64,000 nucleotides of DNA from Promethearchaeota archaeon (GTDB taxonomy: Archaea > Asgardarchaeota > Lokiarchaeia > Sigyniarchaeales > SOKP01). Position numbers and translations under genes: made by a program. The stretch spans positions 1-64,000 of the forward strand of contig JAHLWS010000070.1 in the NCBI GenBank assembly GCA_019057795.1, given 5' to 3'. How positions within the stretch are numbered: position 1 is the stretch's first letter; every line of letters starts with the position of its first letter. Below are positions 26,775 through 32,975 of the stretch, piece by piece. The notes beneath the pieces are model-generated. The model was not told the DNA's origin and ran no database searches. It saw only the letters and a list, made by a program, of their open reading frames with translations.

Positions 26775-27344
26775 ATGTCAGAGAAGGCTAAAAAAACCAA
26801 AATTAATTTTTCCTTTAAATGCCCAATTTGTAGCGAAGGAAAAATTGAAATCAGTAAGGTGATATATGATGTACCAGACGGAGATAAAATATTAATTATT
26901 AAATTTGAATGTAACATATGTAATTATTCCAATAATGATATAATCCCCTTAACAACTAATTTTACTCCAGGTATTATGAAATTAAAGGTTACGAATGAAG
27001 ACGACCTAAAATCTAAAATATATCGTTCCCCAGTAGGGTCATTAGAAATTCCAGAATTGGAATTAGTTGTTAACCCAGGTCCTAGAGCTGATTTTTATTT
27101 AACAAATGTTGAGGGTATTTTGTTTCGATTTGAAAACGCAGTTTCAATATATCGTAAAAACCTCGAAGAAGATGACGCTCAAATAGAAGAAATTGATAAA
27201 ATTTTACAAGACTTGGGAAAGGCAATAAACGGAGAATTTAAGTTCACTTTAATTATAACTGATACTGGAGGGGGAAGTTATATTATTCCTAACGATAAAT
27301 CAAAATATTCATTCGAAAAATTTGAGCCTAAAGAATTAAATTAA
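26775..27344 (+). CDS. ZPR1-related zinc finger protein
   Basis: CPIC...CNICNY, IPELEL...PG, TNVEG, D..G.SYI. Confidence 0.88.
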   Translation: MSEKAKKTKINFSFKCPICSEGKIEISKVIYDVPDGDKILIIKFECNICNYSNNDIIPLTTNFTPGIMKLKVTNEDDLKSKIYRSPVGSLEIPELELVVNPGPRADFYLTNVEGILFRFENAVSIYRKNLEEDDAQIEEIDKILQDLGKAINGEFKFTLIITDTGGGSYIIPNDKSKYSFEKFEPKELN

Positions 27345-27421
27345 AAATAATAAAGGAAATCATCATTATTTTTTAATAAGTATTAATGAAAAAAATAAAA
27401 TTATTAAAAATGTGAAATCAA

Positions 27422-28631
27422 ATGGTAATTAAAAAAGTTGGAATTTTAACGGGCGGCGGAGCCATGTTCAAGACTTTTCTTGACTGCCGTACACTGCCCC
27501 GGGTTAAATAGTGTAATTTATGGGATAATGTTAAAAGCCTACGATGCCGGTATAGAATGTGTTGGGATTCTTAAAGGTTGGAAAGGATTTGTGGAGAACT
27601 TAACTATCCCTCTAAATATCGCCGAACATGATGATTTACACACAGTTGGAGGTACAATATTATATACCAGTAGAACCAATCCTTTTAAAGGAGTTGATTC
27701 GAAAGAAGAAAAAGCAAAAGAATTAGCAAAGAAATTTGATGAATTAGGTATTGATGCACTTATCGCTATCGGTGGAGATTTAAAACGGTTTACATTTTAA
27801 ACCTAAAACGATACTTTAAGTGTTGCGGATGCTATGTGCAAATACTCAAAAGCGAATGTAATTGGCTGTCCAAAAACGATAGACAATGACTTGTTTGGGA
27901 CCCATTACACGTTCGGATTTTGGAGTTCGACGCAATTAGCTTCTAATGCAATGGACAATCTCACCACAACAGCTCGTTCGCATCAGCGGGTTTTTATAGT
28001 TGAAATAATGGGGAGAGATGCAGGATTTCTTACAATGTATAGTGGAATTTCTGCTGGTGCCGATATAATATTAATTCCTGAAACACCGTTTAGTTTAGAA
28101 AAGGATGTTATTGACGTGCTTAAAAAAAGAGTCAATGCAGGGTACAAATATCACATAATTGCCACCTCAGAAGGAGCTTATCCAAATTCAGAGTCGTTGA
28201 ACAAGGATTTTAAAACGATATCAAAAGAAACGATAGATAAATTACCTAAGGATACATACGGAAACCCGTTGCTTGTAAAATTGAATATATCCAAAATAAT
28301 TGTTGAAGAACTCAACTTAAGAGAAGATTTGAAAAAGGAATTTCAGAATAATGGTGTGGATTTTGAGTGTAGAAGCGTAGTCCTGGGCCACACAATGCGA
28401 GCAGGAACTCCTAATTGTTTTGATCGTATATTAGGATTAAGGTTTGGTTTAGCTGCAATGAAATTGGTTTTAAACAAAGACTTTGGTTATATGGTTTCGC
28501 TCCAAGGAACTAAAATAGAGAAGGTTCCCTTAGCTGAAGGTGTTAAAAAGAAGTATATAACATTTGATAATGATAAAATGGAATTACGAGACCTATTAGT
28601 GAAAATTAGATATTTATCGAAACAAAATTAA
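27422..28631 (+). CDS. pfkA: PfkA-family 6-phosphofructokinase (PPi-type signature), spliced: join(27422..27461,27493..27777,27808..28631), 382 aa
   Basis: Spliced product reads MVIKKVGILTGGG-D-CPGLN ... GGTILYTSR ... IGG-D-DTL ... PKTIDND ... EIMGRDAG ... LGHTMRAG. The two inserts fold as BHB or relaxed BHB. Confidence 0.88.
27462..27492 (+). other. BHB pre-mRNA intron 1 in pfk (31 nt)
   Basis: Central helix GCGG/CCGT, bulges AG|C and AC|A, inner stem CA/TG plus TCAAGA/TCTTGA. Removal restores GGA GAC TGC CCC GGG. Confidence 0.85.
27778..27807 (+). other. Relaxed BHB pre-mRNA intron 2 in pfk (30 nt, contains in-frame stops)
   Basis: Outer stem ATCG/CGAT, inner stem TTTAAAA/TTTTAAA, central GTGG/CCTA (2 of 4 paired), bulges AG|A and AA|A. 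Removal restores GGA GAC GAT ACT. Confidence 0.75.
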
Positions 28632-28678
28632 TTTCAGTGTTTTTTTTTATTTGTTGTATTTAAAAAAAGAAATTTAAA

Positions 28679-29917
28679 TTAACCGTAGTGTTTTTCTTCC
28701 TCGTGTTCAGCGTCAATTGCGTCTTGCTCTACATCGCGACCAAGCCATTTTTCGCTTAAAATTTCCTTGTAATACTCGTGTTGGATAATTAAATTCATTA
28801 TTTCTGTTGTGCCGGTCCAAATCTCTCCTAAACGGGCGTCCCTCATTAATCTTTCTATAGGATAGACGGTTGTGTATCCAATTCCACCCATGATTTGCAT
28901 CGATTTATTGATTACTTTCCAACACATTTTTGTTGAAAACTTTTTGGATTCAGAAACTAATCTTCTTTGGAGAGCGGGTGGCGCACCTGCATCTATTGTT
29001 TTCGCAGTGTTAAAGACAATTGCTCTTACTGCGTCTAAATATGTAATACAATCAGCGATCATGAAGTTAACAGCTTGAAAATTCTTAATTACTTGTCCAA
29101 ACGCTTTTCGTTTAGTGCTATATTTGGTAGCAATGTGTAGACAAGCACGTGCTAATCCAATAAAGCCAGAAGCTGTAGACAACCTCTCTGGAACCATCAT
29201 TTGATAGAATATTTTACCTCCCTTTCCCTCTCCCAGAATTAAATTTTCTTTTGGGATTTCTGCATCTTTAAAAATTATTCTACCCGCTCCGCCGCCTCTA
29301 GTACCTAACAAACCATATATATATGCTGCCTCTACTGCATCACTTTTATCAACAATAAATAAGCTTAAAGAATCACGAGGGGGGGCTTTAGGATTCGTTT
29401 TAGCGTAAACCAAAAAGAAATCAGCACCTTCAGCGCCAACAACGAATCGTTTTTCTCCATTTAATATATAGTAATCTCCTTCTTTTACAGCAGTAGATGT
29501 GGCTCCAAAAAAATCCGAACCTCCTCTTGGTTCAGTTAACGCTTCAGCAGTGAATTTCTTACCCTCACACATAGGCTTTAAATAATTTAACTTTTGGTCT
29601 TCTGTGCCAAATTTATTAAGCGCTTCCCCACATATACTCGGTAATGAAAATAAACAAGCTAGAGAACTTCCTAGTACGCCAACTTCTTCTTGGGCAATAA
29701 TTTCGCTTTCCCAATTTAATCCACGACCCCCATATTTCTTTGGAAACCTTATTCCAATCAAATTTTGTTTAGCTAATGCCTCCATCCACTCACTTGGATA
29801 TTGAATCTCGTCTTTATCCATTTGTTTTAATAATGAAGGTGGTACAGCATTTTTAACGAACTCTCGAACTTCTTCTCTAAATTTTTTATTTTCTTCGTTT
29901 AATAAATAATCATACAT
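28679..29917 (-). CDS. Acyl-CoA dehydrogenase
   Basis: [45 protein letters not shown]. Confidence 0.95.
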
Positions 29918-31442: not shown

Positions 31443-32975
31443 ATGCAGTGGAAAAGAATTTTATTACTAGTCGCAAATTTTAAAACGACTGGTTATGATT
31501 TTTACGATTCGGCTTTTCCTCCCTTGGCACTTGAATATATAGCTGCGTATGTAGAGGATTTGGTTAAAGTAAAAATATTAGATTCTAAAGCAGCTAATTT
31601 AAATTTTTTTCAAGTAAAAAAAAAAATTGAAAAATTTAAGCCTGATTTAGTTGGTCTATCAGTTCCAGTCACAAGCTCTATAGATATTGTTTTAGAATAC
31701 GCAAAAATTGCTAAATTATATGGTGCAACAACAGTTATAGGCGGGTGGCATCCAACTTTAGCAGTTGAACAAACCTTATCTTCTCCATGGGTAGATATTT
31801 TAGTTAGAGGAGAGGGTGAATTTACTTTTCGTGAATTAATCAAAAAGGGTTCCCCAAAGTCTGTTAATGGTTTGTCATATAAAATAAATGGAAAAATGAT
31901 ACATAATCCAGATAGACAATTTTTAAAAAACTTGAATGAGTTAAAGCTTCCCTCTCGCCATCTTGTAGAAAAATATAAGTATAAAATATTTAATATGAAT
32001 TGCGACGCGATAGAAACATCTCGCGGATGCCCACAAGCATGTAAATTCTGTAGTACTAATGTGGTTTATAAGCAAACTTGGAGAGCTAGATCGGTAGAAA
32101 ATATAATAAAAGAATTGGAAATAGTATCAAAAAATAAAAGAGTCAAAGATGTTTTTTTTGTAGATGATAATATTCTTGTTAATATGAAACGGGTTGGGAG
32201 ATTATGTATTGAAATTATAAAAGGTAAAAGAGAAGGAAGAATTAAAAAAAAAATGTATTTTTTCTTTCAAGGACGCTTAGATTCCATGGCAAAACGACCA
32301 GGAGTTGTTAAATTAATGGCTGAAGCGGGCTTTTGGCTTGTTTTAGTAGGTGTTGAAGCAACCGATAATAGCCGATTAAAGAGTATTAAAAAAGGATGTA
32401 ATATAGAGCAAATTAAGAGAGGTATAGAGGTTTTACATCAAAACGGAATAGTAGTTATGGGAAATGTCATTCTTGGAATAAATCTAGATGATACATTGGA
32501 TGATGTTCTAATTACAATTAATAGAACTAGAGATTTAACTTTAGATTTACCTAGTTTTACATTGTTAACACCATTTCCAGCTACTGGTTTTTATGAAGAA
32601 ATGAAAGAGAAAGGTTTACTACTCACAGAAGATTATAGTAAATTCAATTGGTTAAATCCTGTAATAAAAACTCCAAATTTCAATTCGGAAGTTCTAAAAA
32701 AGTTATTATTTCTTGGATTTTATGCTAATGGTTTTTACGCTGGAAATTTAAGGAATAAAATTACTTTACTTCGTAGAACTATTAAATTAAGAGGATATTT
32801 TTATATTCTCCTTCCTACGAGAATATATCTAACAATTATTGCATATTTTAAATGGAAAAAAATTGTCCTCAATAACTTAAAAGGAATTAAAAAAAAAGAA
32901 ATAAAACAGATAAAATTAGGAAACCTGAATCAAATGAAGAATTTAAAAAATGAAATTTTAAAGCTAATGGATTAA
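31443..32975 (+). CDS. B12-binding domain radical SAM protein, paralog 1
   Basis: PPLALEYIA, GGWHPT, RGEGE, TSRGCPQACKFC, VDDN. Confidence 0.92.
   Translation: MQWKRILLLVANFKTTGYDFYDSAFPPLALEYIAAYVEDLVKVKILDSKAANLNFFQVKKKIEKFKPDLVGLSVPVTSSIDIVLEYAKIAKLYGATTVIGGWHPTLAVEQTLSSPWVDILVRGEGEFTFRELIKKGSPKSVNGLSYKINGKMIHNPDRQFLKNLNELKLPSRHLVEKYKYKIFNMNCDAIETSRGCPQACKFCSTNVVYKQTWRARSVENIIKELEIVSKNKRVKDVFFVDDNILVNMKRVGRLCIEIIKGKREGRIKKKMYFFFQGRLDSMAKRPGVVKLMAEAGFWLVLVGVEATDNSRLKSIKKGCNIEQIKRGIEVLHQNGIVVMGNVILGINLDDTLDDVLITINRTRDLTLDLPSFTLLTPFPATGFYEEMKEKGLLLTEDYSKFNWLNPVIKTPNFNSEVLKKLLFLGFYANGFYAGNLRNKITLLRRTIKLRGYFYILLPTRIYLTIIAYFKWKKIVLNNLKGIKKKEIKQIKLGNLNQMKNLKNEILKLMD

What the first reader, a model, noticed from the sequence alone, without database searches (positions are those of the whole stretch)
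27778..27807. pfk intron 2: relaxed BHB in the catalytic GGD|D motif, same GGA G|AC junction as intron 1
A 30-nt insert with two in-frame TAA codons. Perfect outer (ATCG/CGAT) and inner (TTTAAAA/TTTTAAA) stems set a register with bulges AG|A and AA|A, but only 2 of 4 central pairs form. A competing hairpin (GGTTTA/TAAACC) also exists. Both pfk introns follow GGAG, suggesting a target preference. The relaxed motif implies a broad-specificity endonuclease, and the alternative fold could allow regulated splicing (inference). The spliced GGDD + PKTIDND combination is the established PPi-PFK signature.
Basis: partly seen in the sequence, partly recalled or inferred. Interest (0 to 1): 0.8.

Follow-up and report, generated by a model that had tools for sequence, protein, structure and literature searches.

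The report
tRNA-type mini-intron in Asgard pfk
A 30-base insert with two stop codons splits the catalytic motif of a phosphofructokinase gene in a Loki-type (Promethearchaeota) Asgard archaeon; its shape and its evolution in relatives match an intron cut from the mRNA by the tRNA-splicing enzymes, a process the papers I searched confirm by experiment for only one archaeal protein gene (cbf5).

Summary
Window 27778-27807 is a 30-nt insert with two in-frame TAA codons inside the GGDD motif of a PFK gene (27422-28631, +).

- **Structure:** a 4-bp exon-exon helix and a 7-bp intron helix leave exactly 7 nt on each strand. That is the bulge-helix-bulge (BHB) geometry. The central helix forms only 2 of 4 pairs here, and 3 of 4 in most relatives.
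- **Distribution:** the insert is present in 11 of 42 species genomes of the genus and in 29 metagenome contigs (24 sequence variants). It is precisely absent from 21 congeneric alleles.
- **Selection:** all 40 intron-bearing loci keep both exons open. Exon 3 dN/dS is 0.055 with the intron and 0.050 without it.
- **Junction:** across the variants, only G|AC always restores Gly-Asp-Asp. This is the cut the BHB rule predicts.
- **Exon constraint:** synonymous sites of the flanking codons are frozen only where the intron is present.
- **Enzymes:** the genome encodes a two-subunit (alpha-beta) EndA with the crenarchaeal-type loop, plus RtcB.
- **No transcript evidence:** the one apparent spliced RNA contig (intron 1) came from a relative that lacks that intron in its DNA.
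the "regulated splicing" and "GGAG target" ideas are not supported.
- **Context:** this scan has already reported similar mRNA introns elsewhere in this genome.

The parts
27422..27461 (+). pfk exon 1 (MVIKKVGILTGGG plus the first base of an Asp codon)
   Evidence: Matches the intron-less orthologue L004, which reads ...GILTGGGDCPGLN.
27462..27492 (+). pfk intron 1 (31 nt, frameshifting). This is a companion finding, used here only as context.
   Evidence: Present in 8 and precisely absent in 22 of the 30 congeneric alleles aligned.
27493..27777 (+). pfk exon 2, ending ...IAIGG plus G of the Asp codon
   Evidence: Pfam PFK profile positions 10-101. Open in all 40 intron-bearing loci.
27778..27807 (+). 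pfk intron 2: a 30-nt BHB-type insert with in-frame TAA at 27798 and 27804
   Evidence: Precisely absent in 21 congeneric alleles.
27808..28631 (+). pfk exon 3 (AC of the Asp codon, then DTLSVADAM...CPKTIDND..., stop at 28629-31)
   Evidence: Pfam PFK profile positions 103-276. dN/dS is 0.055 among intron-bearing alleles.
27768..27771 (+). Outer helix h, 5' strand (AUCG, exon 2)
   Evidence: Pairs with 27809-27812. Paired in 100% of cells. The Ile codon is ATC in 11 of 11 intron-bearing alleles but in only 7 of 21 intron-less ones.
27772..27775 (+). Central helix H, 5' strand (GUGG, exon 2)
   Evidence: Only 27774 and 27775 pair here. Pair 27773-27804 covaries in relatives as U-A, U-G and C-G.
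27776..27778 (+). 5' bulge AG|A, with the predicted cut between 27777 and 27778
   Evidence: The cut falls after the 2nd bulge nucleotide, as the BHB rule states (PMC2738675). It is the only junction that restores GGDD in all variants.
27779..27785 (+). Inner helix h', 5' strand (UUUAAAA)
   Evidence: Pairs with 27795-27801. 92.5% of cells are paired, with 3 pairs changed on both sides.
27795..27801 (+). Inner helix h', 3' strand (UUUUAAA)
27802..27805 (+). Central helix H, 3' strand (CCUA, intron)
27806..27808 (+). 3' bulge AA|A, with the predicted cut between 27807 and 27808
   Evidence: The last intron base is free in relatives (A, G, C or T), as expected for an unpaired bulge base.
27809..27812 (+). 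Outer helix h, 3' strand (CGAU, exon 3)
   Evidence: The codons are GAC and GAT in 11 of 11 intron-bearing alleles and vary in intron-less ones.

Best explanation
Window 27778-27807 is a bulge-helix-bulge (tRNA-type) intron in the pre-mRNA of a probable PPi-dependent phosphofructokinase of a Promethearchaeota (Lokiarchaeia-type Asgard) archaeon.

**Proposed mechanism**
1. The transcript folds so that exon bases AUCG (27768-71) pair with exon bases CGAU (27809-12).
2. Intron bases 27779-85 pair with 27795-27801.
3. A weak 4-position helix (27772-75 with 27802-05) sits between two 3-nt bulges.
4. [quoted passage not shown]
5. RtcB joins the exons to give GGA GAC GAU ACU (Gly-Asp-Asp-Thr), restoring the GGDD catalytic and PPi-specificity motif.

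Without removal, translation stops at 27798.

**Shown:** the insert, its geometry, its conservation pattern, the position of the junction, purifying selection on both exons, and the presence of the enzymes.

**Inferred:** that EndA and RtcB are the agents, and that splicing occurs at all. No transcript was seen.

The intron is old. It occurs in both major clades of the genus, where synonymous sites are saturated, and it has been lost precisely several times.
For: - **Clean interruption.** The PFK profile is interrupted between positions 101 and 103. The intron-less orthologue at 94% identity reads IAIGGDDTLSVADAM straight through.
- **Distribution.** 11 of 42 genus genomes and 29 metagenome contigs carry a 30-nt insert at this exact site, in 24 variants. 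21 congeneric alleles lack exactly these 30 nt.
- **Intact exons.** All 40 intron-bearing loci have open, conserved exons on both sides.
- **Purifying selection.** Exon 3 dN/dS is 0.055 with the intron (41 pairs) and 0.050 without it (162 pairs). dS exceeds 2 between clades, yet the intron is still recognisable.
- **Structure.** 89% of cells pair in the BHB model, against 35-46% when the partner strand is slid by 1-3 columns. Four pairs change on both sides.
- **Geometry.** The chance rate of this geometry is 1.6e-5 per site.
- **Junction.** Variants with T as first and T, C or G as last intron base leave G|AC as the only cut that gives Gly-Asp-Asp in every variant. This is the cut between the 2nd and 3rd bulge bases, as described for cbf5 (PMC2738675).
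- **Exon constraint.** The flanking codons read ATC GGY GGA G|AC GAT in 11 of 11 intron-bearing alleles and vary in the 21 intron-less ones. The next codon (Thr), outside the helix, varies in both groups.
- **Not simple shared ancestry.** Intron-bearing alleles are interspersed on the tree. At least 7 state changes are forced by well-supported branches.
- **Enzymes.** The EndA alpha subunit aligns end to end with the Aeropyrum pernix catalytic subunit (3P1Z_B, E 4e-34). It keeps Tyr/His/Lys and the loop Lys in 'SKPR'. The beta paralogue lacks the His. RtcB scores 561 bits on the same contig.
Against: - **No RNA evidence.** No contig of the RNA runs covers 27723-27816.
- **Weak central helix.** It has 2 of 4 pairs here, and its outermost position never pairs in any of the 24 variants (G.A or G.G).
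- **The BHB fold is not the predicted minimum.** In 48-nt models, exon A27776-G27777 pairs with the intron's C and U in a slipped hairpin that is 2.4 to about 7 kcal/mol more stable than the BHB fold. The enzyme would have to capture a minority fold.
- **Limited covariation.** Related sequences inflate the shuffle controls. The outer-helix columns in the metagenome set were fixed by my search pattern.
- **A second PFK-family gene exists.** It lies on contig C12, so pfk is not demonstrably indispensable.
Confidence: 0.85

Rival explanations
1. The insert is removed from the mRNA, but by a route other than EndA acting on a BHB. For example, a different nuclease could recognise the long slipped hairpin, followed by RtcB ligation.
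For: The minimum-energy fold is a slipped hairpin, not the BHB, in all 24 variants. The central helix is weak.
Against: Both helices sit exactly 7 nt apart on each strand, and the BHB rule predicts the one junction that the coding sequence allows. In the slipped fold the 5' cut site lies inside a helix. I found no such alternative pathway in the papers searched.
Confidence: 0.06
2. The pfk gene is a decaying pseudogene in the intron-bearing lineages, and the insert is never removed.
For: There are two in-frame stops. Gene callers split the gene into 90-aa and 265-aa pieces. A second PFK-family gene exists on C12.
Against: All 40 intron-bearing loci have intact exons. dN/dS is 0.055, equal to that of intron-less alleles, across saturated synonymous divergence. 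The insert itself and the exon bases it pairs with are conserved.
Confidence: 0.02
3. The ribosome bypasses the 30 nt (translational hopping, as in phage T4 gene 60), or reads through the stops.
For: A stem-loop with stop codons inside a coding sequence resembles a bypass element. In the window's own variant, GAT occurs on both sides of the gap.
Against: Hopping from GAT to GAT would yield GGD-T and lose the second Asp. In most variants the take-off codon would be GTT or GGA, with no matching landing codon. Readthrough would need two stops decoded and would add 10 residues inside the catalytic loop.
Confidence: 0.02
4. The gene is expressed as separate polypeptides: an N-terminal piece ending in the insert and a C-terminal piece starting at ATG 27834.
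For: An ATG at 27834 opens a 265-aa frame.
Against: The 8 codons between the insert and that ATG (DTLSVADA) are conserved as protein with synonymous changes. The ATG itself is TTG, TTA or ATA in several intron-bearing alleles. The split would remove the second Asp of GGDD from both pieces.
Confidence: 0.02

Closest known systems
BHB intron of the cbf5 (pseudouridine synthase) pre-mRNA of Crenarchaeota (Watanabe 2002; Yoshinari 2006; Yokobori 2009, PMC2738675)
   Same: [quoted passage not shown]
- Cuts fall between the 2nd and 3rd bulge bases.
- The host has a two-subunit EndA.
- Distribution among relatives is patchy, with secondary loss.
[quoted passage not shown]
   Different: - A different gene (a glycolytic enzyme rather than an RNA-modification enzyme) and a different phylum (Promethearchaeota, Asgard).
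- The gene carries two such introns.
- Splicing is confirmed by cDNA for cbf5 but not here.
- Notes from this scan suggest this genome has many such mRNA introns, against the single confirmed gene in Crenarchaeota.
Non-canonical BHB introns of archaeal pre-tRNAs, abundant in Asgard genomes (Marck & Grosjean 2003; PMC11291895; bioRxiv 10.64898/2026.10.13.758758)
   Same: - The same size class (about 30 nt).
- The same hBHBh' geometry, half built from exon sequence.
- The same presumed enzymes (EndA alpha-beta and RtcB).
- Repeated gain and loss among close relatives.
   Different: - The host RNA is an mRNA, so the exon half of the motif must also encode protein. This shows up as frozen synonymous sites.
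- Those papers report tRNA introns only.
Unconventional cytoplasmic splicing of HAC1/XBP1 mRNA in eukaryotes (cited in PMC4090602)
   Same: Protein-only removal of a short intron from an mRNA, with stem-loop cut sites and ligation by a tRNA ligase (RtcB in metazoa).
   Different: - The nuclease is IRE1, not the tRNA-splicing endonuclease.
- That splicing is a regulated stress switch. No regulation is shown here.

Membership tests
Archaeal BHB (EndA-dependent) intron | [quoted passage not shown] | tested here: met
   The relaxed form is met. The outer helix is 4/4, the inner helix 7/7, and both strands have 7-nt spacing. The central helix is only 2/4 here and 3/4 in most relatives. The strict form is not met.
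Archaeal BHB (EndA-dependent) intron | Cut sites between the 2nd and 3rd base of each bulge give a functional product | tested here: met
   The predicted cuts at 27777|27778 and 27807|27808 give GGA GAC GAT. Comparison of 24 variants leaves this as the only junction valid in all of them (rule from PMC2738675).
Archaeal BHB (EndA-dependent) intron | Structure maintained in evolution (compensatory change, constrained exon half) | tested here: met
   89% of cells pair against 35-46% in slid controls, and 4 pairs change on both sides. Exon synonymous sites are frozen only in intron-bearing alleles. The sample is small and the sequences are related.
Archaeal BHB (EndA-dependent) intron | The host encodes a splicing endonuclease able to cut relaxed motifs, and an RNA ligase | tested here: met
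   The alpha subunit has the triad and the loop Lys. The beta subunit lacks the His. RtcB is present. Activity on relaxed motifs is inferred from homologues (PMC3241643, PMC5829648).
Archaeal BHB (EndA-dependent) intron | The intron is absent from the mature RNA | tested here: inconclusive
   No RNA contig covers the site. The only joint seen (intron 1) comes from an allele that lacks that intron in its DNA.
PPi-dependent phosphofructokinase (EC 2.7.1.90) | GGDD in place of GGDG, and PKTIDxD with Lys in place of Gly | tested here: met
   The spliced reading and the intron-less orthologue L004 give IGGDDT and CPKTIDND. The signature is described in PMC12203962.
PPi-dependent phosphofructokinase (EC 2.7.1.90) | Membership of a curated PPi-PFK model, or a measured preference for PPi | tested here: not met
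   The best NCBIfam hit is PFK_mixed, at 342.7 bits against a cut-off of 430.6. The only model passed is the 'ATP-dependent 6-phosphofructokinase' subfamily NF002872, at 325.9 bits against a cut-off of 253. All PPi-PFK models score below their cut-offs. Donor specificity therefore rests on the two motifs alone. An enzyme assay is not possible with these tools.

The most novel reading that the evidence does not exclude
Splicing of this intron is conditional rather than constitutive. The weak central helix and a more stable slipped hairpin would make the BHB a minority fold. The yield of functional PFK, and with it entry into glycolysis, would then depend on EndA level, temperature or an RNA chaperone. 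Two such introns in one gene would multiply the effect. This would be an archaeal counterpart of regulated HAC1/XBP1-type splicing, in the closest prokaryotic relatives of eukaryotes.
Probability: 0.1. Interest if true: 0.85.

Novelty: new member of a known kind. Interest (0 to 1): 0.62.

Why it matters
In the papers I could search, protein-only (tRNA-type) splicing of archaeal mRNAs is confirmed by experiment for one gene, cbf5, in Crenarchaeota. Recent work on Asgard introns covers tRNA genes only.

A central-metabolism gene of a Promethearchaeota archaeon that needs two such splicing events suggests three things, if it is confirmed and taken together with this scan's other notes on this genome:
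- The tRNA-splicing machinery of the closest archaeal relatives of eukaryotes may routinely process mRNAs.
- Standard gene callers break such genes. Here pfk is called as 90-aa and 265-aa fragments, so metabolic reconstructions of Asgard genomes may wrongly score pathways as incomplete.
- The exon half of the motif puts a measurable constraint on synonymous sites.

The case also provides a defined 60-nt substrate for testing how relaxed a motif the Asgard EndA accepts.

Tried and rejected
- **RNA evidence.** I laid two metatranscriptome runs, one doubtful run and one run of unrecorded type on 27300-28700. A 292-nt contig in RNA run X3 joins 27461 to 27493, exactly the predicted intron 1 junction. 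Its interior (27523-27688) is 100% identical to the G009 allele (L006), which lacks intron 1 in its DNA. It is therefore an intron-less relative's sequence and not evidence of splicing. No RNA contig covers intron 2.
Rejected because it is not conserved.
- **GGAG target preference.** Not supported. Introns 1 and 2 show no sequence similarity beyond what the shared exon context imposes.
- **Pseudogene, bypassing and split-protein readings.** Rejected on the grounds given under rival explanations.
- **Genomic deletion between the two GAT repeats as the origin of intron-less alleles.** Rejected. It would remove 33 nt and one Asp.
- **Taxonomy.** The Protein Atlas look-up gave only generic PFK clusters. 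Record titles from genome contigs settled the question: the closest relatives, at 76-94% identity, are mostly named Promethearchaeota or Promethearchaeia.
- **A second BHB-geometry hit at 32134.** It lies inside an uninterrupted 510-aa ORF and is a chance match.

Full report
**What is there**

The window is AT-rich (about 31% GC). A phosphofructokinase gene of Pfam family PF00365 runs from ATG 27422 to a stop at 28629-31 on the + strand, but it is broken twice.

- A 31-nt frameshifting insert (27462-27492) splits GGG|DCPGLN.
- The 30-nt insert of this finding (27778-27807) splits IGG-D-DT.

The frame through exon 2 hits TAA at 27798 and again at 27804. The Pfam match ends at profile position 101 before the insert and resumes at 103 after it. 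A 94%-identical orthologue in a congeneric genome (L004) reads ...IAIGGDDTLSVADAMCKY... without interruption. Public gene calls split the gene into 90-aa and 265-aa pieces.

**Organism**

Record titles of the closest relatives, at 76-94% identity, are mostly 'MAG: Promethearchaeota archaeon' or 'Promethearchaeia archaeon', including Loki_b31 and Loki_b32. A few carry other Asgard names. This is a Lokiarchaeia-type Asgard archaeon.

**Structure**

Exon AUCG (27768-71) pairs with exon CGAU (27809-12). Intron UUUAAAA (27779-85) pairs with UUUUAAA (27795-27801). These two helices leave exactly 7 nt on each strand. That equals a 4-position central helix plus a 3-nt bulge, which is the hBHBh' layout.

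- The bulges are AG|A and AA|A.
- Of the four central positions, only G27774-C27803 and G27775-C27802 pair. The other two are U.U and G.A.
- This geometry occurs at 1.6e-5 per position and length in the window.

**Comparative evidence**

In the 42 species genomes of the genus, 11 carry a 30-nt insert at this exact site. Of the 32 pfk alleles I could read, 21 lack exactly these 30 nt. A metagenome scan added 29 contigs, giving 24 distinct variants in 40 loci.

- **Exons stay intact.** All 40 loci keep both exons open and conserved.
- **Purifying selection is unchanged.** Exon 3 dN/dS is 0.055 among intron-bearing alleles and 0.050 among intron-less ones. Synonymous divergence between the two main clades is saturated (dS above 2), yet the intron is still alignable. 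The gene is under normal purifying selection, so the stops must be removed before translation.
- **The intron is old and was lost repeatedly.** The two intron sequence types follow the two main clades of the exon 3 tree. Intron-bearing and intron-less alleles are interspersed, and well-supported branches force at least 7 changes. This fits an old, vertically inherited intron with repeated precise loss.

**The junction**

In the window's own variant the cut could slide by one or two bases. Other variants start with T and end in T, C or G, for example GGAG|TTTT...AAAT|ACGAT. In those, only G|AC yields Gly-Asp-Asp. This is the cut between the 2nd and 3rd bulge bases, the rule stated for cbf5 (PMC2738675). 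GAT GAT is excluded.

**Pairing statistics**

On the 24 variants, 89% of cells pair in the BHB model, against 35-46% when the 3' partners are slid by 1-3 columns. Four pairs change on both sides.

| Central helix position | Pairing across the 24 variants |
|---|---|
| Innermost | G-C, invariant |
| Second | G-U in 19, G-C in 5 |
| Third | U-A, U-G or C-G in 18; mismatched in 6, including the window's lineage |
| Outermost | Never pairs |

The first and last intron bases, which lie in the bulges, are free.

The flanking codons read ATC GGY GGA G|AC GAT in 11 of 11 intron-bearing alleles. In the 21 intron-less alleles every one of these third positions varies. The next codon, which lies outside the helix, varies in both groups. 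This is what is expected if the exon half of the motif is under RNA-level selection.

**Enzymes**

The genome has two EndA genes.

- One (200 aa) aligns end to end with the Aeropyrum pernix catalytic alpha subunit (3P1Z_B, E 4e-34). It keeps Tyr, His and Lys, and it keeps the crenarchaeal-type loop with its Lys (query SKPR against EKPR).
- The other (201 aa) has lost the His.

This is the (alpha-beta)2 type with the L1 loop. The literature assigns this type to the Asgard and TACK lineages and links it to relaxed motifs (PMC5829648, PMC3241643). RtcB lies on the same contig.

**Weak points**

- There is no transcript evidence. The one apparent spliced contig (intron 1, RNA run X3) is identical in its interior to the G009 allele, which has no intron 1 in its DNA. 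I withdrew it as evidence.
- The BHB fold is not the predicted minimum. A slipped hairpin that pairs exon AG with the intron's C and U is 2.4 to about 7 kcal/mol more stable.
- A second, divergent PFK-family gene exists on contig C12.

- The competing GGTTTA/TAAACC hairpin is stable only in the window's own variant. It gives no support for regulated splicing.
- The shared GGAG context of the two pfk introns follows from both sites encoding Gly-Gly-Asp.
- GGDD plus PKTIDxD is indeed the published PPi-PFK signature (PMC12203962). However, the curated NCBIfam models do not place the protein in a PPi family.

**Novelty**

The literature I could search confirms BHB splicing of an archaeal mRNA only for cbf5. 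Papers on Asgard introns treat tRNA genes only. This scan has already reported similar mRNA introns elsewhere in this same genome, in a hydrolase, thiolases, rpl11 and others. This finding is one more, well-supported member of that set. Its particular value is a junction fixed by comparison and a visible constraint on exon synonymous sites.

Noticed in passing
window 27462-27492; L024:1172-1223, L032:2594-2644: Intron 1 of pfk occurs in 8 of 30 congeneric alleles, independently of intron 2 (both are present in 4). Two alleles carry, at the same site, an insert with a completely different inner hairpin (for example GTAGTA/TACTAC in place of TCAAGA/TCTTGA). One allele has 32 nt rather than 31.
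   Followed up: partly
G000:C12:10625-11824 (L074:426-1625): A second, divergent PFK-family gene (399 aa, intact) with GGND and VPKTVDND motifs. The genome may therefore have two PFK-type enzymes. Estimated contamination of the assembly is 7.5%, so its origin should be checked.
   Followed up: partly
L004:1162-2319 against PDB 44xa_A (also 44xf, 9cir): A solved '6-phosphofructokinase' chain of 424 aa matches the intron-less orthologue at E 8.6e-138. This is far closer than any bacterial PFK, although a 2025 review states that no archaeal PFK structure exists. I could not identify the source organism of that entry.
   Followed up: no
L003 and L004 in the exon 3 tree: The window's allele and G002's are sisters with 100% support but very unequal end branches (0.003 against 0.27). 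This hints at recombination or a mosaic allele within pfk.
   Followed up: no
window 27406-27718 in RNA run X3: A metatranscriptome contig of depth about 106 carries the pfk 5' part of a G009-like strain and starts 16 nt upstream of the ATG. A relative's pfk region is thus present in that RNA library; DNA carry-over is not excluded. The contig ends with 10 unrelated letters before reaching intron 2.
   Followed up: partly
window 32134 (+), L=30: The only other place in the window with the same strict helix geometry at length 30 lies inside an uninterrupted 510-aa ORF. It is a chance match and gives a feel for the false-positive rate of geometry-only scans.
   Followed up: yes
window 26775-27344 (+): The gene directly upstream of pfk encodes a ZPR1-type zinc-finger and jelly-roll protein (Pfam PF22794 and PF03367).
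   Followed up: no
L005 against L008 (sister alleles): The intron-less sister of an intron-bearing allele reads ATT GGC GGC GAC GAT. It keeps the GAC expected after precise (cDNA-like) loss, but three of the formerly frozen synonymous sites have already changed.
   Followed up: no
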